From: Aquabacterium sp. | Lineage (GTDB): Bacteria > Pseudomonadota > Gammaproteobacteria > Burkholderiales > Burkholderiaceae_C | Direction of reading: 5' to 3' | NCBI RefSeq assembly: GCF_041909175.1 | Contig: NZ_JAYRDZ010000005.1 | Coordinates: 60,417 to 124,416 of the forward strand | DNA length: 64,000 nucleotides | Part shown: positions 2,986 to 63,530 of the stretch, one piece after another | How positions within the stretch are numbered: the stretch's first letter is position 1 | Layout: every line of letters begins with the position of its first letter | Translations under genes and position numbers: made by a program | Notes under the pieces: generated by a model | Databases searched by the model: none | What the model saw: the letters and a program-made list of their open reading frames with translations, nothing else | Told to the model about the DNA's origin: nothing

Positions 2986-3705
2986 TCAGTCCTTGCCGTG
3001 GCACTGCTTGAACTTCTTGCCGCTGCCGCAAGGGCAGGGGTCGTTGCGGCCCACCTTGGGCTGTTCGTGCTTCACGGTGGTGACCTTGTGGCGCTCGGCA
3101 ATGCCGACCTGAGCCAGGTCGACCACGTCGAACACCAGCGCCTGGATGGCTTCATCCAGATTGCGCAGCGGGTGTTCCTGGTCAAGTGCCTTGGTCATCT
3201 CACGCTGGGTTTCGTCCTGATCGGGCAGGTGGCGCCAGATCGAGTCCAGCAGATCGGGCACGCCAGCGGCGCCGAGGTCTTCCAGTTGCGGGAAGTTGGC
3301 CAGCGCCCACTCGAAGCCGGCAGACCAGTAGCCCAGGCCTTCGAGCGCATCCTTGCCGGTCAGCAGGTTGCCTTCTTCGTCTTCCAGCTGCGGCACGATC
3401 GGGTCGAACCAGCCTTCTTCCAGAATGCCACGCAGCACTTCGTCCTTGCGGCGCTGGATCAGGGCCAGCAGACGGCTGTGCTGGGCTTCGGTCCAGCCGT
3501 TTTGGCCTGGCACCGGCAAGCCGGCTTCGCCAAAGATGGGCGGCAGCCACTGCTCGGGTTCGATCTGGATCGGTTGCACGATCACGCCGGCCAGGTAGCC
3601 ATCCAGCATCACGGCGTCGACCGCTTCATGCGGTGCGGGCACGGCTTCGAGCAGCGTGTCCAGTTCGTTGATTTCGGCGTCGGAGAGCTTGGGGGTGGGC
3701 TTCAT
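2986..3705 (-). CDS. UPF0149/YecA-family protein with C-terminal SEC-C motif
   Basis: LDGYLAGV...WLPPIFG core and [21 protein letters not shown] tail. Confidence 0.92.
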
Positions 3706-56646: not shown

Positions 56647-58055
56647 GCGAGTCCCGACGCATTGTCCCCATCCTTCCGTCACTTGATCTTCCAGGTGTGG
56701 AGGCCGCCCACAAGGTTCAGGCCCGCAGCACTCAGGGGCGCTTCTCGCGTTGGCGCAGGGCCAGTTTGCTGGCCACACAGCTGTTTTTTTTCGGCTTGCC
56801 CTGGCTGAACTGGCATGGTCGCCAGATGGTGCGCTTTGACCTGGAGGCCAAGCGCTTTTATCTGTGCAACCTGATCCTGCTGCCCCAGGACCTCATTTTT
56901 TTGGCAGGCCTGCTGGTGTTCTGTGCCATGGGGCTGTTCATGGTCACCACCTTGTGGGGCCGCCTGTGGTGTGGCTTCAGTTGCCCTCAGACGGTCTACA
57001 CCGAGTTGTTCATGTGGGTCGAACGGCGACTGGAGGGGGATCGCTACCAGCGCCTGAAGCTTGACCAGTCGGGCTGGAATGCCAATAAGGTGTGGCGGCG
57101 TGGTGGCAAGCAACTGGCATGGGGCGCCATCTCGGTGTGGACGGGGTTGACCTTCGTCGGCTGGTTTTCGCCGATGCGGGAGCTGGTACCCAGCCTGGTC
57201 ATGGGCACGCTGAGCTTCTGGGATGGCTTCTGGGCCTTGTTCTATGGCGGGTTCTGCTACATGAACGCTGGCTTGCTGCGCGAGAAGGTGTGCCTGCACA
57301 TGTGCCCCTATGGTCGCTTCCAGGGGGCGCTGATGGATGGTGACACCCGCATCGTGGCATATGACACCCAGCGTGGCGAGCCTCGTGGCGCCCATCGCGG
57401 CAGACTCCATTCGGCCGCGGGTGCCTGCATCGACTGCACGATGTGTGTGCAGGTCTGTCCGACCGGGATCGACATCCGCGAGGGTCTGCAGGCCGCCTGC
57501 ATCGGGTGCGGCTTGTGCATCGACGCGTGCGATCAGATCATGGACAAGACCGGGCAGCCGCGAGGGCTGGTGCGTGTGGCCACGCAGCGTGAACTGGGGC
57601 AAGGTGGCCAGGTCGGTCAGGCATCGTCCTGGTCTAGGCTGCGCGTGCGTGTGTATGCCGGGGTGATGTGCGTTTTACTGTTTGCCCTGGTTGGCGCCTT
57701 GATGAGTCGCCCCGATATCCGAGTGGACGTGATCCGTGACCGTGGCGTGATGGCCCGCACGGTGGATGACGGTGCCATCGAGAACGTCTACCGCGTTCAG
57801 CTGATGAACCAGACCGACCTGCCTCAAGGCATCCAGATTGGCGTGCGTGGTTTGCCTGGTGCTGCAACGACGTCGCCCCCGGTTGTGCTGGGGCCGGTCG
57901 AGGACCGCATGGTGCAGGTTTCCGTGCGGGTGCCGCCGGCACAGGCAGTGCAGTTGACTGGTCGCGTGGTACCGATTCATTTCGAGGTGGCCAGCCGCAC
58001 CGCCCGTGATAGCAGCCTGGTCAGTGAGGCGAGTACGTTCATCGTGCCGCGCTGA
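56643..58055 (+). CDS. ccoG: Cytochrome c oxidase accessory protein CcoG/FixG
   Basis: GRLWCGFSCPQTV, CLHMCPYGRFQ and CIDCTMCVQVCPTGIDIR..ACIGCGLCIDAC. Confidence 0.93.
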   Translation: MSESRRIVPILPSLDLPGVEAAHKVQARSTQGRFSRWRRASLLATQLFFFGLPWLNWHGRQMVRFDLEAKRFYLCNLILLPQDLIFLAGLLVFCAMGLFMVTTLWGRLWCGFSCPQTVYTELFMWVERRLEGDRYQRLKLDQSGWNANKVWRRGGKQLAWGAISVWTGLTFVGWFSPMRELVPSLVMGTLSFWDGFWALFYGGFCYMNAGLLREKVCLHMCPYGRFQGALMDGDTRIVAYDTQRGEPRGAHRGRLHSAAGACIDCTMCVQVCPTGIDIREGLQAACIGCGLCIDACDQIMDKTGQPRGLVRVATQRELGQGGQVGQASSWSRLRVRVYAGVMCVLLFALVGALMSRPDIRVDVIRDRGVMARTVDDGAIENVYRVQLMNQTDLPQGIQIGVRGLPGAATTSPPVVLGPVEDRMVQVSVRVPPAQAVQLTGRVVPIHFEVASRTARDSSLVSEASTFIVPR

Positions 58056-58119
58056 CAAGGGGCGCGAGCAACGCTTGATAGAGTTGGATTCAAGCCTGCC
58101 TGAGTGGATACTGGTCACC

Positions 58120-59175
58120 ATGCTGAAAACACCCCTGCTGTTCCTCTCCATCGTGCTCTTGCAACTCGGCCTGGTTCTGGCCTTGTTCCTGCAGCGTCGT
58201 GCCCTGAAGGCGCATCAGAATCGCATCGTGGCCGCTTTGCCTCCGGGTGTGCGCTTTTGGCGGGTGGCGCTGGCCCGCAGTGCGCACCTTAACCGGCTGT
58301 GGCGGCTGGGGCCTGTGCAGGCCCTGGGGGTGTTGGTCGATGAGGGGGCTCAGGTGCGGCTGCGCTGCCGCTGGCATGGTGCCAACGAAGATGCCGATGT
58401 GGTGTTGTCCAAGCAGGCGCCGCAGCAACCCCAGTGGCGAGGCCCTTTCAACTTGCGGGCCGGACAAATGGCCTGGGCGAGTTTTCCATGCCCTGATGGC
58501 GATGTGATGGTGGCCATTGATACCGGGCTGCAGACGCTGGGTTCGCGTGAGGCGCTGGCCGACATGCTGCGCTCGGTGTACCCCGGCATGCTGCTGCCAG
58601 ACAGTGCCGACCATGAGTTCGCGCTGGAAAAGCACAAGGGCACGCTGTTCACCATGGTGCTGATGCTGGGCTTGTTCCTGTTTGCCGTGGTGGACACCTT
58701 TGTGGTGGGCCGCTTCGAGTTGATTGACGCCCAGATTGCGCAGTTCTTGCGCACGCCCACCGTGCTGGCAGGCTATGGCTTGTGGCTGCTGTTGGTTGGG
58801 GTGCTGGTGTTCACGTCATTGCGTCGGGCCACGGTGCCGCCACGTGAAGCCTATGGGCTGGCCATTCTGGTTGCGGTGGTGGCCGCGCTCGTGACCCCAC
58901 CGGTGCTCAAGCGGGTGGACCAGCTGACGGCGGGCCCCTCGGTCAACTACGCTTACCGGGTGTCTGCCAGTGTGGGCACCTTGTACCCGGTGGATACGCA
59001 GCATGGCATGCCGGTGCTGCGTTTCAAAAGGGCACCCGAGTACTGGGCCCAGTTCGAGCCTGACACGGTGGTGCAGATCCCGATGGTGCACGGCAAGCTG
59101 GGTTTGTGGCAGTTGGATCACGAGCGGTTTGATCCGCCCGTGATCGCCTTCTACCGAGGTGGGCAGCGCCAGTGA
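58120..59175 (+). CDS. Hypothetical multi-TM membrane protein
   Basis: Long ORF with an N-terminal TM segment, a soluble domain and three further TM segments. Confidence 0.65.
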   Translation: MLKTPLLFLSIVLLQLGLVLALFLQRRALKAHQNRIVAALPPGVRFWRVALARSAHLNRLWRLGPVQALGVLVDEGAQVRLRCRWHGANEDADVVLSKQAPQQPQWRGPFNLRAGQMAWASFPCPDGDVMVAIDTGLQTLGSREALADMLRSVYPGMLLPDSADHEFALEKHKGTLFTMVLMLGLFLFAVVDTFVVGRFELIDAQIAQFLRTPTVLAGYGLWLLLVGVLVFTSLRRATVPPREAYGLAILVAVVAALVTPPVLKRVDQLTAGPSVNYAYRVSASVGTLYPVDTQHGMPVLRFKRAPEYWAQFEPDTVVQIPMVHGKLGLWQLDHERFDPPVIAFYRGGQRQ

Positions 59176-59184
59176 GCAGAGGGC

Positions 59185-60501
59185 TCAGCGCAGCTTTTCG
59201 AGCAGGGTGTAGTACCACATGCCCAGGGCCAGCAGGGGGTTGCCGAGGGCCCGGCCAAAAGGCACCTTGATGTGTTTGCATGCAGCAAAGGTGTCAAAGC
59301 GCGTGAGGGTGCCGGTGATGGCTTCAGCCATGATTTCACCCATGATGTGGCTGGTGGCCACGCCATGCCCGGAGTAGCCCTGGCAGTACCAGACGTTGTC
59401 TGACAGCTTGCCCAACTGGGGGATGCGGTTGATGACGATGCCCATGGCGCAGGTCCATTCGAAATCGATGCGCACGCCTTTCAGCTGCGGGAAGGTCTGC
59501 TCGATGAAGGGGCGCAACTCGCCAGCCACATCACGCGAATCGCGTCCGGAGTAGTTGGCGCCGCCCCCGAACAGCAGACGCTGGTCGGCCGTGAAGCGGA
59601 AGTAATCGAGCACGAAACGGCAGTCGTATACGGCGAGGTTGTCGGGGTTGAGCTGGCGGGCCAGGTCGCCCAGCGGTTCGGTGGCGACAATGCCGCCCAT
59701 GGCCGGGAAGATCTTGCCGCCGAGCTTCTTCTTTTCGAGGTGGTGGTAAACGTCGCCTGCCAGCATCACCTGACGGGCCTCGACGCGGCCTTGGGCTGTG
59801 ACCACCGCGGGCTTGGCGCCATGCACGATGTCGAGCACCTCGGTGTGCTCGAAGATTTGCACCCCCAGTTGTTCGGCGGCACGGGCTTCACCGATGCACA
59901 GATTGAGCGGGTGCAGGTGCATGTTGCGCATGTTGCGGATGGCGCCGATGTAGCGTTCGCTGCACAGCGCTTCGCGTACGCCGGTCTGGTCCAGCAAGGT
60001 GACCTGGTCCGCCATGCCGTGCTGCAGGGCTTCTTCGTACGAGGCACGCAACTCGGTCAGGTGGGCGGGGGTCATGGCGGCATGCAGGTGGCCGTGCTGC
60101 AGATCGCACTGGATGCCGTATGTCGCTACGCGCTGCTGGATGATCTCGTGGCCGCGCCAGCGCAGGTGCCAGATGAAATCATCGACCTCCTGACCCAGAG
60201 TGGCACGCATCTGCTTGCGCATGGCACCATCGCCCGAAAGGCTGCCTGTGACCTGACCGCCATTGCGGCCACTGGCGCCCCAACCGACTTTGTGGGTTTC
60301 CAGCAGCGCCACCTTGAGGCCGCGTTCGGCCAGTTCCACGGCGGTGGCCACGCCCGTGAAGCCGCCACCGATGATGGCGACGTCGACCGCCACGGTGCCT
60401 TGCAGGGTGGGGTAGGCGGTTTCATCGCGCAGCGAGGCGCTGTAGTAAGAGCGGGTGCGCTCGGGTGCAGCGGCCACGGCGTTGTGTGTCGGGGTGTTCA
60501 T
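59185..60501 (-). CDS. FAD-dependent oxidoreductase, gamma-glutamylputrescine oxidase (PuuB)-like
   Basis: SYY.AS, IGGGFTG, GASGRNGGQ and GYSGHGV. Confidence 0.88.
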   Translation of the reverse strand: MNTPTHNAVAAAPERTRSYYSASLRDETAYPTLQGTVAVDVAIIGGGFTGVATAVELAERGLKVALLETHKVGWGASGRNGGQVTGSLSGDGAMRKQMRATLGQEVDDFIWHLRWRGHEIIQQRVATYGIQCDLQHGHLHAAMTPAHLTELRASYEEALQHGMADQVTLLDQTGVREALCSERYIGAIRNMRNMHLHPLNLCIGEARAAEQLGVQIFEHTEVLDIVHGAKPAVVTAQGRVEARQVMLAGDVYHHLEKKKLGGKIFPAMGGIVATEPLGDLARQLNPDNLAVYDCRFVLDYFRFTADQRLLFGGGANYSGRDSRDVAGELRPFIEQTFPQLKGVRIDFEWTCAMGIVINRIPQLGKLSDNVWYCQGYSGHGVATSHIMGEIMAEAITGTLTRFDTFAACKHIKVPFGRALGNPLLALGMWYYTLLEKLR

Positions 60502-60526: not shown

Positions 60527-61891
60527 TCAGGCCTGGTTCAGGTACCAGCGCCAGTCCTGTTCACCCACTTCGCCCATGTACTGGCGGTACTCCTGGCGTT
60601 TGACGGCGAGGAAGACCTTGAGGAATTCGGGGCCGAAGGCACCGCGGGCCCAGTCGGATGCCGCCATGGCATCGAGTGCGCTCAGCCAGTCGGTGGGCAG
60701 CAGGCTGTCGGCTTGCGCATAGCCATTGCCTTCAATGGGGGCACCCGGGTCGATCTGTTCGCGGATGCCGGTGTGCGATGCCGCGATGATGGCCGCTGCG
60801 GCCAGGTAAGGGTTGGCATCGGCCCCGCAGACGCGGTGCTCCACATGGCGGCTGTAGGCTGGTCCGCCTGGTACGCGCAGGCTCACGGTACGGTTGTTGA
60901 CACCCCATGTCGGGGTCAGCGGGGCATAGCTGTTGGCCTGAAAGCGCCGATAGGAATTGGCGTTGGGGCAGAACATCAGCAGCGCATCAAGCAGATGGCG
61001 CTTCATGCCGCCCACTGCCTGACGCAGCAGGGGCGTGCCGGCCGGGTCGTCCGAAGCAAACAGGTTGTGGCCTGCCTGGTCTGCCACCGAGATGTGCATG
61101 TGCATGCCCGATCCGGCAATGTGCGCGAAGGGTTTGGCCATGAAGCAGGCCCGCATGCCATGCGCATGGGCCACGCCTTTGACGATGCGCTTGTAGCGCA
61201 CAGCGTGGTCCATGGCCGTGAGTGCCGGGCCATGTTCCAGGGTGATCTCGACCTGACCGGGGGCGTATTCCGAAATGGCCGTGCGGGCCGGGATGCCCTG
61301 TGCCTCACAGGCGGCGTAGAGGTCAGCCAGGAAGGGTTCGATCTGTTCCAGTTCGCGCAGGCCATAGACCTGGGTCTGACCGGGGCGGCCGCCGTCGACA
61401 TCGAGGGCGGGCTGTGGGCGGCCTTGGGTGTCGTTGTGTGCGTCGAGCAGGTAGAACTCCAACTCGCAGGCCATGATGGGGTGCAGTCCATCGGCTTCCA
61501 TGTGGCCGATGACCTGTTGCAGCAGGTGGCGCGGGTCGGCCACCACCGCGGGCAGGCCTTCGTGCGGGTGCATCTGGACCTGTACCGCCCCGGTGGGCAT
61601 CTGTCGCCAGGGCAGGCGAACCAGGCTGCCTGGCAGCGGGTAGGCACGGCAGTCGATGTCGCCCACGTCCCAGACCAGACCGCTGCCATCGGTGTCTTCG
61701 CCCAGCACGGTGAGGTTCATCATGGCGCTGGGCAGGGGGCGCCCGTCACGGAAGACGGTCAGCAACTCTTCCCGGTGCAGCAGCTTGCCGCGCGGGACGC
61801 CGGCAGCGTCGATGATGAAGAGTTCGAACAGGGTGATGTCGGGGTGGCGCGCCAGGAAATCCAGCGCTTCTTGTTCAGGAGCAAAAGTCAT
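60527..61891 (-). CDS. Glutamine-synthetase-family protein, gamma-glutamylpolyamine synthetase (PuuA)-like
   Basis: ELEFYL, SEYAPGQVE, FMAKP...GSGMHMH, NSYRRF and HRVCGADANPYL; next to a PuuB-like gene. Confidence 0.88.
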   Translation of the reverse strand: MTFAPEQEALDFLARHPDITLFELFIIDAAGVPRGKLLHREELLTVFRDGRPLPSAMMNLTVLGEDTDGSGLVWDVGDIDCRAYPLPGSLVRLPWRQMPTGAVQVQMHPHEGLPAVVADPRHLLQQVIGHMEADGLHPIMACELEFYLLDAHNDTQGRPQPALDVDGGRPGQTQVYGLRELEQIEPFLADLYAACEAQGIPARTAISEYAPGQVEITLEHGPALTAMDHAVRYKRIVKGVAHAHGMRACFMAKPFAHIAGSGMHMHISVADQAGHNLFASDDPAGTPLLRQAVGGMKRHLLDALLMFCPNANSYRRFQANSYAPLTPTWGVNNRTVSLRVPGGPAYSRHVEHRVCGADANPYLAAAAIIAASHTGIREQIDPGAPIEGNGYAQADSLLPTDWLSALDAMAASDWARGAFGPEFLKVFLAVKRQEYRQYMGEVGEQDWRWYLNQA

Positions 61892-62013
61892 GTCGTACCT
61901 CGGCAAGGCATGCAGCCGCGCACGGACGCACCCACGCACACAGGCGCCAGGGCGGTCATGCCATCAGAAAAGGAAAAGGGATGAGGGCGCCAAAGGGCGC
62001 GCTGGGCTGAGAC

Positions 62014-62178
62014 TCAGCGCTGCGGTGGCCGAGCGTGACGACAGTGGTAGAGGGCCCAGAAGTCGAGGTTCACGCGGAGTACGCACACGCGCGCCAAAGC
62101 CTGATCGCGGGGGCGATCCAGCCTTGCTTCGGTGTGAAGCGGCTCGGGCAGTGCCGTGAACGGTGGGATGCAGGCCAT
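62014..62178 (-). CDS. Putative leader peptide (uORF) of the polyamine catabolism operon, 54 aa from ATG; shorter GTG/TTG starts possible
   Basis: MACIPP...ARVCVLRVNLDFWALYHCRHARPPQR*; 11 consecutive G/C-ending codons in the core; absent from the supplied ORF track, which lists nothing under 60 aa. Confidence 0.5.
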   Translation of the reverse strand: MACIPPFTALPEPLHTEARLDRPRDQALARVCVLRVNLDFWALYHCRHARPPQR

Positions 62179-62277
62179 GAGGTAGCGCGCAGAAACTTCG
62201 GGTGTGGAGACAGTCTACGAGAACACCCAAGCAATTTCAATGCGCAGTGCGAAGCCTCATGGTGGGGCAACTGGTCT

Positions 62278-63024
62278 TCAAAGCAGGCAGTAGCGAACCA
62301 GCCACTGGTAGGCCGGGCTGCGTCCTTCGTCATCGTGCCATTGCAGGGTCAGTGCACCGTCTTTCTGTCGCAGCGCGAAGTGGGTGGGCGTGATTGGCGT
62401 CTGGCCGGGATCCGGCCGGATGGCCAGGCCCTGTATGAGCGCCGTCTGCTGGCCGGCTACCGGAATGCGGGGGCCGGGTCCGGCGGTGGCCTCTGTCGAT
62501 GCAGGCCATCGGCCCGTGACGACCACACAGCGCGACAGCCTGAGCATGGGGATGGACACCGCGGTGGCCGACAGAGGGGTCAACCCGGCCGTGTCGACAT
62601 CAGGCAGCCAGCCCAGAGCGACGCCGTCGGTCGGCTGTGGGGTTGTGGGCCAGGCGAAGTCACTCAGCACCATGGTCCAGCCGGCCGCCACAGGGCCGGG
62701 GCGGCTGGCCTCTGAATAGCCTGCACCCAGCAGCCATTGCACGCTGGTGTGCCATGTCGCCTCGGCGGTCCCACCGGCGGGGCTGATTTGCCACCCGGTC
62801 AGCAGGGGCCAATGCGGTGGTTGCCCTGCTGTGCGCGGGGGCAGCGCTGTCACGCGGACGAGCGCGGCCGACGCGTCGACCTCATCGACGTGCAAGCGCT
62901 TGTCGATGGTCCAGCTGTATTGCGGGGCGAGCATCCGCACTCCTGTTTGAGCCAGGGCGAGGCTGGACAGGCCCATGAAGCCCATCCAGCCTGTGAAGCC
63001 CCATTGCATGAGGCGTGAGGGCAT
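62278..63024 (-). CDS. Exported hypothetical protein
   Basis: Signal-like GFMGLSSLALA; ATG overlaps the upstream TGA; C-terminus LQWHDD...WLVRYCLL. Confidence 0.6.
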   Translation of the reverse strand: MPSRLMQWGFTGWMGFMGLSSLALAQTGVRMLAPQYSWTIDKRLHVDEVDASAALVRVTALPPRTAGQPPHWPLLTGWQISPAGGTAEATWHTSVQWLLGAGYSEASRPGPVAAGWTMVLSDFAWPTTPQPTDGVALGWLPDVDTAGLTPLSATAVSIPMLRLSRCVVVTGRWPASTEATAGPGPRIPVAGQQTALIQGLAIRPDPGQTPITPTHFALRQKDGALTLQWHDDEGRSPAYQWLVRYCLL

Positions 63025-63530
63025 CAGTGCATGGCCGAGTTGGCGCGCTGAGCCTGCTGGGCCGCCGTGGCGCCGCGGGCAGATTCCAGGTTCTTCGCCG
63101 AGTTGAGTTCATTCATGCCGGCTGTGGTGGCGTTGTTCTGGACCAGGCCTTTCTTGGGGCCCTTGTCTCCCCCTTTGTCCCCACCCTTATCTCCTCCCTT
63201 GTCGCCGCCCTTGCCACCACCGTCGTCGCTCTTGCCCAGGGCGGACATGCCGGCTGTGGTCTTGCTTTGCGCACCGAGGGCCAGGCCCTTGGGCGGTTTG
63301 CCATCACCGCCCTTGTCGCCACCCTTGCCACCGCCTTTGTCACCCCCTTCCGACTTGCCAACGGCGGCGGTGCCACTCAGACCTTGCGCGGTCTGGACCT
63401 TGGCTGCGGTGACTTTGTGCACGGGTGCTTTCTTGATCGGGGGTTCTGCCTGTTCTGCGGCCGAAGCGGCTTGAGCCAGGCCTGCGGCCAGCAAGGCAGC
63501 CAGGAGCGTGAGGCGATAGGTGGTCTTCAT
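63024..63530 (-). CDS. Secreted low-complexity protein with GGDK repeats
   Basis: Signal peptide MKTTYRLTLLAALLAAGLAQA; two (GGDK/GGGK)n tracts. Confidence 0.75.
   Translation of the reverse strand: MKTTYRLTLLAALLAAGLAQAASAAEQAEPPIKKAPVHKVTAAKVQTAQGLSGTAAVGKSEGGDKGGGKGGDKGGDGKPPKGLALGAQSKTTAGMSALGKSDDGGGKGGDKGGDKGGDKGGDKGPKKGLVQNNATTAGMNELNSAKNLESARGATAAQQAQRANSAMH

What the first reader, a model, noticed from the sequence alone, without database searches (positions are those of the whole stretch)
61892..62277. Hidden leader peptide and alternative hairpins upstream of a PuuA/PuuB-like polyamine catabolism operon
Seen: the 386-nt gap 5' of the PuuA-like gene holds a same-strand ORF at 62178..62014 (MACIPPFTALPEPLHTEARLDRPRDQALARVCVLRVNLDFWALYHCRHARPPQR), bounded upstream by an in-frame TAG. 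Its core CGC GTG AAC CTC GAC TTC TGG GCC CTC TAC CAC has 11 G/C-ending codons in a row, which looks like coding selection. A 6-bp stem (61999-62004 with 62015-62020) covers the stop codon. It overlaps a second stem GCGCC-N4-GGCGC (61987-62000), which is followed by a pyrimidine tract TCCCTTTTCCTTTTCT (61981-61966). The stop lies 122 nt before the PuuA-like start. Established: metabolite-sensing arrest peptides exist (SpeFL for ornithine upstream of speF; TnaC for Trp), and PuuA/PuuB-type enzymes degrade putrescine. Inference: this is a polyamine-responsive ribosome-stalling leader that controls attenuation or Rho termination. I see no clear identity to SpeFL. The start codon is uncertain, the SD is weak and the U-tract is not directly on the stem.
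Basis: partly seen in the sequence, partly recalled or inferred. Interest (0 to 1): 0.82.

Follow-up and report, generated by a model that had tools for sequence, protein, structure and literature searches.

The report
Conserved Arg-Pro-Pro leader peptide before amine-catabolism genes
It sits in front of gamma-glutamyl-amine catabolic genes in well over a hundred Pseudomonas and betaproteobacterial species genomes, and it looks like a new ribosome-arrest type regulator.

Summary
Observation confirmed. The 54-codon ORF (62178..62014, minus strand), both stems, the pyrimidine tract and the 122-nt spacer are all as described. On its own the ORF is not significant, because two other ORFs of 87-88 aa overlap the same gap.

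Comparison with relatives decides it. 76 of 80 orthologous loci (76-83% identical GS-like protein; Pseudomonas, Paraburkholderia, Vogesella and others) carry a same-strand ORF ending 76-179 nt before the gene. All share the core L-A-F-W-A-L-W-H-C-R-H-A-R-P-P. That core is written in 74 different DNA versions, and almost all variation falls at third codon positions (entropy 1.5 / 0.55 / 12.96 for positions 1 / 2 / 3). Three more loci carry a variant leader ending RHSSRPPD.

A genome-wide DNA-pattern scan found the motif only in this context: upstream of the GS-like gene in 106 of 116 evaluable loci, and directly upstream of a PuuB-type oxidase in the other 10.

The N-terminal part and the 2-10-codon tail are unconstrained, which is the usual signature of an arrest peptide. 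There is no Rfam, Pfam or NCBIfam model and no literature hit.

The likely mechanism is a nascent-chain-dependent pause at Pro-Pro that controls downstream expression, probably through Rho. This is inferred, not shown. There is no intrinsic terminator, and neither the effector nor the direction of control is known. I class it as a new member of the regulatory leader/arrest-peptide kind.

The parts
62212..62240 (-). Sigma-70-like promoter: TTGAAA, 17 nt, TAGACT (-35 at 62240-62235, -10 at 62217-62212).
   Evidence: 1 site found against 0.1 expected in shuffles. Its sequence and layout resemble the conserved GCGCATTTAAT..GAGTCT element upstream of the leader in P. aeruginosa-type loci. The -10 hexamer lies 33 nt before the leader ATG.
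62014..62178 (-). Leader ORF, 54 codons plus TGA. There is no Shine-Dalgarno sequence.
   Evidence: Homologous ORFs occur in 76 of 80 orthologous loci. The frame is open in 123 of 128 loci, against 29 and 79 in the other two frames.
62023..62067 (-). Conserved core L-D-F-W-A-L-Y-H-C-R-H-A-R-P-P (family consensus LAFWALWHCRHARPP).
   Evidence: Invariant residues are L, F, W, A, H, C, R, H, A, R, P, P. There are 74 distinct DNA versions. Entropy at codon positions 1/2/3 is 1.5/0.55/12.96.
62023..62028 (-). Pro-Pro codons (CCA CCG), the proposed arrest site. Two codons (Gln, Arg) and the stop follow.
   Evidence: Pro-Pro is invariant in every family member. It is the only block shared with the variant leader ..RHSSRPPD. 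The tail after it is 2-10 codons long and unconstrained. Arrest itself is inferred.
61999..62020 (-). Stem-loop GCGCTG-N10-CAGCGC overlapping the stop codon.
   Evidence: dG -10.2. It corresponds in position to the post-stop hairpin seen in 78% of relatives against 18% of shuffles.
61987..62000 (-). Stem-loop GCGCC-CTTT-GGCGC. It shares 2 nt with the previous stem, so the two are alternatives.
   Evidence: The same GCGCC-N3-7-GGCGC hairpin type recurs in the spacers of relatives, usually just before the GS-like gene's ribosome-binding region.
61966..61981 (-). Pyrimidine tract TCCCTTTTCCTTTTCT.
   Evidence: It is not a terminator by the consensus scan. It is part of a C-rich, G-poor leader and spacer.
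61892..62013 (-). 122-nt untranslated spacer, with GAGG (61901-61898) as the ribosome-binding site of the GS-like gene.
   Evidence: Spacer lengths in relatives are 48-190 nt.
60527..61891 (-). GS-like gamma-glutamyl-amine synthetase (PauA/PuuA-type), 454 aa.
   Evidence: Pfam Gln-synt_C, E = 1e-106. It scores 222 bits against the 650-bit cutoff of the NCBIfam gamma-glutamylputrescine synthetase equivalog. Orthologues are 76-83% identical.
59185..60501 (-). DAO-family FAD oxidoreductase (PuuB/PauB-like), 438 aa, 25 nt after the GS-like gene.
   Evidence: Pfam DAO, E = 3e-67. The same gene pair follows the leader in relatives.

Best explanation
The gap holds a translated cis-regulatory leader peptide of about 50-60 residues. 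It belongs to a widespread family for which I found no description.

Shown:
- The peptide sequence, not the RNA or DNA, is under very strong purifying selection over its last roughly 15 residues (..L-A/D-F-W-A-L-W/Y/F-H-C-R-H-A-R-P-P).
- The N-terminal 30-40 residues and the 2-10 residues after Pro-Pro are merely kept in frame.
- The element travels with gamma-glutamyl-amine catabolic genes, either a GS-like ligase plus a PuuB-type oxidase or the oxidase alone.
- In this genome it arrived with them by horizontal transfer.

Inferred: while still in the ribosome exit tunnel, the conserved segment slows or arrests peptide-bond formation at the Arg-Pro-Pro site. This may depend on a small-molecule effector (the amine substrate or a polyamine) and/or on EF-P. 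Where the lead ribosome sits, either held at Pro-Pro or released at the stop codon that abuts a conserved hairpin, then decides whether transcription and translation continue into the catabolic genes.

The most likely coupling device is Rho-dependent premature termination on the C-rich, G-poor leader and spacer, as in tnaC and speFL, because no intrinsic terminator is present. Neither the direction of control (arrest = ON or OFF) nor the effector is known.
For: Conservation of the peptide:
- 76 of 80 orthologous loci have the ORF in the same place.
- There are 74 distinct nucleotide versions of one peptide core.
- Entropy by codon position in the core is 1.5/0.55/12.96. In the 34-codon class the N-terminal part is 1.17/1.12/1.26, the core 0.07/0.00/0.65 and the tail 1.13/1.01/1.29.
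- The frame is open in 123 of 128 loci, against 29 and 79 in the other frames.

Specificity of the context:
106 of 116 evaluable loci have the GS-like gene 127-250 nt downstream of the motif start. The other 10 have a PuuB-type oxidase 48-149 nt after the leader stop.
- There are 1-2 copies per genome and no hits to the reversed control pattern. The window's own genome has a single copy.
- Three loci carry a second leader variant that shares only RH.RPPD.SL, which points to Arg-Pro-Pro as the functional site.
- A profile search of 1.84 billion proteins found only small ORFs of this family (51 clusters). Natural variants include LDFWSLYHCRHARPP and VDFWSLFDCRHARPP, again located before GS-like genes.

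Structure and composition:
- A simple hairpin of -8 kcal/mol or stronger lies within 45 nt after the stop in 78% of 116 unique loci, against 18% of shuffles. It starts a median of 7 nt after the stop and has 66 different stem arms.
- The C/G ratio is 1.36-1.65 in the leader and spacer, against 0.95-1.07 in the flanks.

Acquisition: the module is absent from 60 relatives and from Aquabacterium-like syntenic loci, so leader and genes arrived together.

Expression data (the mapping of these published genes to this family rests on memory of gene order and was not verified):
- P. putida PP_4547 is induced on 6-aminohexanoate (PMC11879879).
- P. aeruginosa pauA3 is about 42-fold lower in ntrB and ntrC mutants (PMC7214821).

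Precedents from the literature: RAPP-type arrest peptides (PMC10951233, PMC12992588) and the effect of EF-P and polyproline on transcription-translation coupling (PMC5021804, listed).
Against: - There is no direct evidence of translation, stalling or regulation.
- No Shine-Dalgarno sequence precedes the leader ATG, either in the window or in relatives.
- The core ends in A-R-P-P, not in a characterised R-A-P-P, R-G-P-P or R-A-G-P motif.
- Masking the mRNA under a ribosome held at Pro-Pro barely changes the predicted accessibility of the downstream ribosome-binding site (0.40 to 0.47). A SecM/ErmCL-type translational switch is therefore not supported.
- There is no U-tract after the hairpin, so a classical intrinsic attenuator is not supported either.
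- Rho involvement rests only on base composition.
- The window's own copy has two unusual residues (Asp for Ala, Tyr for Trp). Both are seen elsewhere in the family.
Confidence: 0.6

Rival explanations
1. The ORF encodes a free-standing small protein that acts in trans, for example as a subunit, chaperone or inhibitor of the GS-like ligase or the oxidase, rather than as a nascent-chain regulator.
For: The peptide is under strong purifying selection. It is always next to these enzymes. Gene callers occasionally annotate it as a hypothetical protein.
Against: - Only about 15 of about 55 residues are constrained. The N-terminal two thirds and the C-terminal tail drift freely in sequence and length, which is unusual for a folded partner.
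- It has no domain and no hydrophobic segment long enough to span a membrane.
- A 48-190-nt untranslated spacer with conserved hairpins separates it from the enzymes.
- It precedes either of two different first genes.
- The second variant keeps only the RPPD block.
Confidence: 0.1
2. The ORF is a passive leader. It is translated only to keep ribosomes coupled to RNA polymerase, or it is a classical codon-starvation attenuator, with no sequence-specific arrest.
For: It is a leader ORF with a downstream hairpin close to the stop codon. The RNA is C-rich.
Against: A passive ORF would not keep 13 residues invariant across gamma- and betaproteobacteria while its synonymous sites vary freely. There is no run of one regulatory codon, and no terminator/antiterminator with a U-tract.
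Confidence: 0.07
3. The peptide is a precursor or scaffold (RiPP-like or cofactor-like) that is modified by the adjacent ATP-dependent ligase and FAD oxidase.
For: It is a small conserved peptide encoded directly 5' of a ligase and an oxidase. Precedents exist for peptide scaffolds in Pseudomonas (10.1101/338681, listed).
Against: - The ligase is a PauA/PuuA-type glutamine-synthetase homologue paired with a PuuB-type oxidase.
- Ten loci have the leader with the oxidase only.
- The C-terminal tail is variable.
- No protease, transporter or recognition-domain genes travel with it.
Confidence: 0.04
4. The conserved element is an RNA structure (riboswitch-like) or a DNA operator, and the ORF is incidental.
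For: The core-coding RNA folds into a hairpin. Its mean free energy is -15.9 kcal/mol, against -13.8 after synonymous recoding and -15.5 after codon-column shuffles. This hints at some extra selection on the RNA.
Against: Variation has a strict period of three and is synonymous only. There is no Rfam match. The hairpin is largely a by-product of the amino-acid sequence.
Confidence: 0.03

Closest known systems
TnaC (E. coli tna operon leader; free-tryptophan-sensing arrest peptide with Rho-dependent attenuation)
   Same: It is a small leader ORF before a catabolic operon, with conserved Trp and Pro residues near the C-terminus and a long untranslated spacer without an intrinsic terminator. The expected logic is that the substrate induces the operon through a stalled ribosome that blocks Rho.
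   Different: There is no sequence similarity. TnaC stalls at its stop codon with Pro24 in the P site. Here the invariant Pro-Pro lies 2-10 codons before the stop, which implies an elongation arrest. The effector and the role of Rho are untested.
SpeFL (ornithine-sensing arrest peptide upstream of speF)
   Same: It is a leader peptide tied to polyamine metabolism. It has a His- and aromatic-rich conserved C-terminal half and a Rho-dependent read-out.
   Different: There is no sequence similarity. SpeFL controls a biosynthetic or acid-stress decarboxylase in Enterobacteria and blocks release-factor action at the stop codon. This family precedes catabolic gamma-glutamylation genes in Pseudomonas and betaproteobacteria.
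RAPP-like arrest peptides (SecM RAGP, ApcA RAPG, ApdA/ApdP RAPP, RGPP variants, CruR)
   Same: An Arg/Ala/Pro/Pro cluster sits near the C-terminus of a small upstream ORF. An adjacent, family-specific N-terminal segment is also required. The arrest is at a Pro codon during elongation (PMC10951233, PMC12992588).
   Different: The order is A-R-P-P, not R-A-P-P. There is no signal peptide or membrane anchor, and the downstream genes are not Sec/YidC components. This is a resemblance in working principle, not membership.
MgtL/MgtP proline-codon leaders of Salmonella mgtA and mgtCBR (from established knowledge)
   Same: Translation of Pro codons in a leader ORF, which is sensitive to cations and EF-P, sets an RNA fold that controls Rho-dependent termination.
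   Different: Those leaders are short and their peptide sequence is not strongly conserved beyond the Pro codons. Here 13 residues are invariant.
Eukaryotic polyamine-sensing upstream ORFs (AMD1 MAGDIS uORF; AZIN1 upstream conserved coding region with Pro-Pro-Trp; from established knowledge)
   Same: A conserved upstream peptide containing Pro-Pro lies before a polyamine-metabolism gene, and stalling is tuned by polyamines through the EF-P homologue eIF5A.
   Different: They belong to a different domain of life, have a different read-out (start-site selection) and share no homology.

Membership tests
SpeFL | Sequence similarity to SpeFL (HIRRxxH sensor plus RxxxFDFHFFNAR effector) | tested here: not met
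   The local alignment score is no better than shuffles (the SpeFL sequence was recalled from memory). No NCBIfam hit at E <= 1.
SpeFL | Located upstream of speF (ornithine decarboxylase) | tested here: not met
   The downstream genes are a Gln-synt_C ligase and a DAO oxidoreductase.
TnaC | W12-x3-D16-x7-P24 followed directly by the stop codon | tested here: not met
   No similarity. The conserved Pro-Pro is followed by 2-10 sense codons.
RAPP-like arrest peptides (SecM, ApcA, ApdA, ApdP, CruR) | C-terminal R-A-P-P, R-G-P-P, R-A-G-P or R-A-P-G motif | tested here: not met
   The invariant motif is H-A-R-P-P. The motif classes are taken from PMC12992588.
RAPP-like arrest peptides (SecM, ApcA, ApdA, ApdP, CruR) | N-terminal export or membrane signal, and a downstream Sec/YidC gene | tested here: not met
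   The N-terminal parts are variable, Pro/Ser/Arg-rich and not hydrophobic. The downstream genes are catabolic enzymes.
Classical amino-acid attenuators (trpL, hisL, etc.) | A run of regulatory codons plus a terminator/antiterminator with a U-tract | tested here: not met
   There is no codon run. No terminator-like site was found. The 12 nt after the conserved hairpin hold 3.1 T.
Regulatory leader/arrest peptide (generic kind) | Small same-strand ORF directly upstream of the regulated gene, conserved with it | tested here: met
   79 of 80 orthologous loci, counting the variant leader. 116 of 116 evaluable motif loci.
Regulatory leader/arrest peptide (generic kind) | Purifying selection confined to the C-terminal 15-25 residues, with a free N-terminus | tested here: met
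Regulatory leader/arrest peptide (generic kind) | Demonstrated ribosome arrest and an effect on downstream expression | not testable with these tools
   This needs toeprinting, Ribo-seq or reporters.
PuuA/PauA gamma-glutamylpolyamine synthetase (downstream gene) | Glutamine-synthetase catalytic domain, paired with a PuuB-type FAD oxidase | tested here: met
   Pfam Gln-synt_C, E = 1e-106, and DAO, E = 3e-67, 25 nt apart.
PuuA/PauA gamma-glutamylpolyamine synthetase (downstream gene) | Reaches the NCBIfam equivalog cutoff for gamma-glutamylputrescine synthetase | tested here: not met
   222 bits against a 650-bit cutoff. It is a paralogous subfamily and its substrate is unknown.

The most novel reading that the evidence does not exclude
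This may be a third natural metabolite-sensing arrest peptide in bacteria, after TnaC and SpeFL, and the first for amine or polyamine catabolism. In this reading the invariant F-W-x-L-W-H-C-R-H segment forms, with the exit tunnel, a pocket for the amine substrate (or makes the Arg-Pro-Pro step sensitive to polyamine or EF-P status). The ribosome itself would then measure the compound and switch on the gamma-glutamylation genes. That would make it a bacterial counterpart of the eukaryotic polyamine-sensing upstream ORFs, present in model Pseudomonas species.
Probability: 0.35. Interest if true: 0.85.

Novelty: new member of a known kind. Interest (0 to 1): 0.72.

Why it matters
Only a handful of nascent peptides are known to let the ribosome sense a cellular metabolite. 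Each one has taught something new about the exit tunnel and the peptidyl-transferase centre.

This family is short, extremely conserved and ends in an uncharacterised A-R-P-P arrangement. It is present in easily manipulated laboratory species (the P. putida group, P. aeruginosa-type genomes, Paraburkholderia). It would add a missing regulatory layer to the redundant gamma-glutamylation pathways for amines and nylon monomers.

It is also a recurrent annotation gap. Most genomes do not call the ORF, and some fuse it to the upstream gene.

Tried and rejected
- Rfam at permissive thresholds, on the window and on three related loci: nothing relevant.
- Pfam and NCBIfam on the peptide: nothing.
- Nucleotide search of the gap in 60 relatives: only chance-level short hits. 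My protein search of the relatives used a strict cutoff (E <= 1e-100) and found no orthologue.
- SecM/ErmCL-type unmasking of the downstream ribosome-binding site: the predicted change is small (0.40 to 0.47) and about the same with the ribosome at the stop codon. Rejected as the main device.
- Intrinsic terminator: none by the consensus scan, and no U enrichment after the conserved hairpin.
I replaced it with a per-sequence hairpin test against shuffles.
- A sigma-54 reading of the conserved upstream element: the GG/GC spacing does not fit (by eye).
- Search for the motif text in the paper library: 0 papers.
- The key P. aeruginosa papers (PMC3147493, PMC3754595) are not held. The assignment of the P. 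aeruginosa copy to pauA3-pauB2, its link to 1,3-diaminopropane, and the assignment of the P. putida copy to PP_4547-PP_4548 therefore rest on memory.
- Earlier notes of this scan held nothing on this element.
Full report
**1. What is in the window**

On the minus strand, a GS-like gene (61891..60527; Pfam Gln-synt_C, E = 1e-106) is followed 25 nt later by a DAO-family FAD oxidoreductase (60501..59185; E = 3e-67). This is a PuuA/PuuB-like pair.

The ligase is not the E. coli-type gamma-glutamylputrescine synthetase. It scores 222 bits against a 650-bit equivalog cutoff. It is only about 35% identical to the five other GS-like genes in the same genome.

- the 54-codon ORF at 62178..62014;
- two overlapping stems, 62020-62015 with 62004-61999 and GCGCC-N4-GGCGC at 62000-61987;
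- the pyrimidine tract at 61981-61966;
- a 122-nt distance from the stop codon to the GS-like ATG.

A sigma-70-like promoter (TTGAAA, 17 nt, TAGACT) ends 33 nt before the ORF's ATG.

By itself the ORF is not remarkable. Two other ORFs of 87-88 aa overlap the same gap, there is no Shine-Dalgarno sequence, and the genome is 62% G+C.

**2. The comparative test**

The gap and the operon are absent from 60 related genomes.

The CcoG gene next door is 74-79% identical to Aquabacterium MAGs. Those loci carry none of the ORFs downstream of ccoG. The module was therefore acquired horizontally.

Its closest relatives (76-83% protein identity) are in Vogesella, Paraburkholderia, Burkholderia and a very large number of Pseudomonas species.

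tBLASTn of the 54-aa peptide against the 700 nt upstream of these 80 orthologues hit 76 of them. Every hit was on the same strand and ended 76-179 nt before the GS-like start.

All 76 share the core L-A-F-W-A-(L/I/Q)-(W/F/Y)-H-C-R-H-A-R-P-P. The window has L-D-F-W-A-L-Y-H-C-R-H-A-R-P-P.

The 77 sequences give 74 different nucleotide versions of this peptide.

| Region | Entropy at codon positions 1 / 2 / 3 |
|---|---|
| 15 core codons, summed, all 77 sequences | 1.5 / 0.55 / 12.96 |
| N-terminal part, mean, 34-codon class | 1.17 / 1.12 / 1.26 |
| Core, mean, 34-codon class | 0.07 / 0.00 / 0.65 |
| Tail after Pro-Pro, mean, 34-codon class | 1.13 / 1.01 / 1.29 |

In the largest length class, then, the N-terminal part shows no amino-acid constraint, the core is extremely constrained, and the tail is free.

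The reading frame is open over 47 codons in 123 of 128 loci, against 29 and 79 for the other two frames.

This is direct evidence that the sequence is translated and that selection acts on the peptide, not on an RNA or a DNA site.

**3. Specificity**

A degenerate DNA pattern for F-W-A-x-x-H-C-R-H-A-R-P-P was scanned over one genome per prokaryotic species.

Of the 116 loci with enough downstream sequence:
- 106 have the GS-like gene beginning 127-250 nt after the motif start;
- the other 10 have the same leader directly in front of a PuuB-type DAO oxidoreductase, 48-149 nt after the leader stop.

Genomes carry one or two copies, and the reversed control pattern gave no hits. The window's own genome has exactly one copy.

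Of the four orthologous loci without the motif, three carry a different short leader, MKLLVNLPMALCRSRLRHSSRPPD... It shares only the block R-H-x(1-2)-R-P-P-D-x-S-L with the main family. In the fourth, the GS-like gene follows another gene by about 30 nt.

A profile search of 1.84 billion protein-cluster representatives found 51 clusters. All are small ORFs of this family, or fusions made by gene callers. They include natural variants close to the window's version: LDFWSLYHCRHARPP and VDFWSLFDCRHARPP. These again lie upstream of GS-like genes.

**4. Is it known?**

I found no description of it:
- no Rfam family;
- no Pfam or NCBIfam model;
- where it is called at all, it is named 'hypothetical protein';
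- no paper in the held library contains the motif;
- searches on leader peptides and polyamine catabolism brought up nothing about it.

The library lacks most subscription journals, so an earlier description cannot be excluded.

**5. Anatomy around the leader**

*Promoter and start.* In most Pseudomonas loci, a conserved GATTTAAT, about 18 nt, GAGTAT element ends only 6 nt before the leader ATG. This suggests a leaderless mRNA, which would explain the missing Shine-Dalgarno sequence. In the window and in P. aeruginosa-type loci, a very similar element (GCGCATTGAAAT..TAGACT against GCGCATTTAAT..GAGTCT) lies 28-33 nt before the ATG, again without a Shine-Dalgarno sequence.

*Hairpin after the stop.* A simple hairpin of -8 kcal/mol or stronger occurs within 45 nt after the stop in 78% of 116 unique loci, against 18% of shuffles. 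It starts a median of 7 nt after the stop codon and has 66 different stem arms. Structure is conserved while sequence varies. The window's two overlapping stems sit in this position.

*No terminator.* The hairpin is not followed by a U-tract (3.1 T in 12 nt). No terminator-like site is found in the window.

*Second hairpin.* A hairpin of the GCGCC-N3-7-GGCGC type usually lies just before a conserved GAGCGAG ribosome-binding region of the GS-like gene.

*Base composition.* The C/G ratio is 1.36-1.65 in the leader and spacer, against 0.95-1.07 in the flanking sequence. This is the composition expected of a Rho loading region.

*Hairpin within the core.* The core-coding RNA itself folds into a hairpin. 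Its mean free energy is -15.9 kcal/mol, against -13.8 after synonymous recoding. It is therefore mostly a by-product of the peptide sequence, perhaps slightly reinforced by codon choice.

**6. Mechanism**

*Shown:* a translated peptide whose last roughly 15 residues are under extreme constraint, strictly linked in cis to these catabolic genes.

*Inferred:* the conserved segment acts from inside the exit tunnel. It is 13-15 residues from the Pro-Pro site, the same scale as SecM, TnaC and the RAPP peptides. It would hinder peptide-bond formation at Arg-Pro-Pro.

Pro-Pro is intrinsically slow and depends on EF-P. The genome encodes the EarP rhamnosyltransferase that modifies EF-P in this lineage.

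The stall cannot be a termination arrest of the TnaC/SpeFL type, because 2-10 free codons follow Pro-Pro.

*Geometry of the switch:* a ribosome at the stop codon would overlap or abut the 5' arm of the post-stop hairpin. A ribosome held at Pro-Pro, 19-41 nt upstream of the hairpin, would leave it free (and spot checks). The position of the lead ribosome could therefore set the downstream RNA fold, or the access of Rho.

*Which device:*
- A translational switch on the downstream ribosome-binding site is poorly supported (0.40 to 0.47).
- An intrinsic attenuator is not supported.
- That leaves Rho-dependent attenuation as the most likely device. I give it about one chance in three in absolute terms.

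I cannot say whether arrest turns the operon on (as in tnaC and speFL) or off (uncoupling, as described for polyproline and EF-P in PMC5021804).

*Expression data:* these fit an inducible, nitrogen-controlled catabolic operon. PP_4547 is up on 6-aminohexanoate (PMC11879879). pauA3 (PA1566) is about 42-fold down in ntrB and ntrC mutants (PMC7214821). My identification of these named genes with this family rests on remembered gene order:
- hrpA / leader-GS-DAO / fadD x2, seen, for P. putida;
- the only adjacent pauA-pauB pair for P. aeruginosa. GS-DAO adjacency was seen in a P. paraeruginosa locus.

**7. Comparison with known systems**

In working principle it resembles TnaC and SpeFL (metabolite-linked leader peptides read out by Rho) and the RAPP-type elongation-arrest peptides.

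It is not a member of any of them:
- there is no sequence similarity;
- the motif order is A-R-P-P rather than R-A-P-P, R-G-P-P or R-A-G-P;
- there is no export signal;
- the downstream genes are different.

I therefore class it as a new member of the known kind 'regulatory leader/arrest peptide'.

**8. Verdict**

| Claim | My probability |
|---|---|
| Translated and under purifying selection on the peptide | about 0.97 |
| Cis-regulatory leader | about 0.85 |
| Arrest at Pro-Pro | about 0.6 |
| Effector is an amine or polyamine | about 0.35 |
| Read-out through Rho | about 0.35 |

Noticed in passing
L058, L069, L087 (about 220-130 nt upstream of the GS-like start at locus position 3001): A second, shorter leader variant, MKLLVNLPMALCRSRLRHSSRPPD(x)SLLA, replaces the main family in three Pseudomonas genomes. 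It shares only RH..RPPD.SL with the main family.
   Followed up: partly
L105, L113, L122, L141, L145, L148, L150, L182, L215, L216, L233: The same leader also stands directly in front of a PuuB-type DAO oxidoreductase without a GS-like gene. The spacer can be as short as 48 nt. Some genomes carry both arrangements (2 copies in G062 and G065).
   Followed up: partly
Pseudomonas loci, 60-100 nt upstream of the leader ATG (e.g. L100 8900-9000): A strongly conserved block, ATTGTTTAGCC..CTGAAGGT..GATTTAAT..GAGTAT, lies upstream of the leader. The last two elements look like a -35/-10 pair ending 6 nt before the ATG, which would make the mRNA leaderless. The first part may be a regulator-binding site.
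   Followed up: no
relatives, 13-25 nt upstream of the GS-like ATG; window 61987-62000 has the same hairpin type but in a different place: A GCGCC-N3-7-GGCGC hairpin recurs, with compensatory variants (GTGCC..GGCAC, GCATCC..GGATGC). It is followed by a conserved GAGCGAG ribosome-binding region. Its function is unknown.
   Followed up: partly
window 58006-59175 (+), 62278-63024 (-), 63024-63530 (-): ORFs of 389, 248 and 168 aa flank the module. They have no Pfam or NCBIfam hit and no counterpart in five Aquabacterium-like syntenic loci. The whole stretch downstream of ccoG (from about 58 kb) looks acquired.
   Followed up: partly
P0097, P0106 (P. aeruginosa-type records): Gene callers have fused the leader ORF to the 3' end of the upstream gene, giving 195-221-aa products. 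This is an annotation artefact that hides the leader.
   Followed up: no
L235 1-10207: In one genome with a window-like leader (LDFWSLYHCRHARPP), the leader-GS-DAO unit sits among genes with Aminotran_3, LysR, DAO, cupin and two aldehyde-dehydrogenase domains. This looks like a complete amine-to-acid catabolic cluster.
   Followed up: no
G000 C15:13237-14352 (L319): The window's genome encodes EarP (411 bits), the rhamnosyltransferase that modifies EF-P. The Pro-Pro rescue system of this organism is therefore the Pseudomonas/betaproteobacterial type.
   Followed up: no
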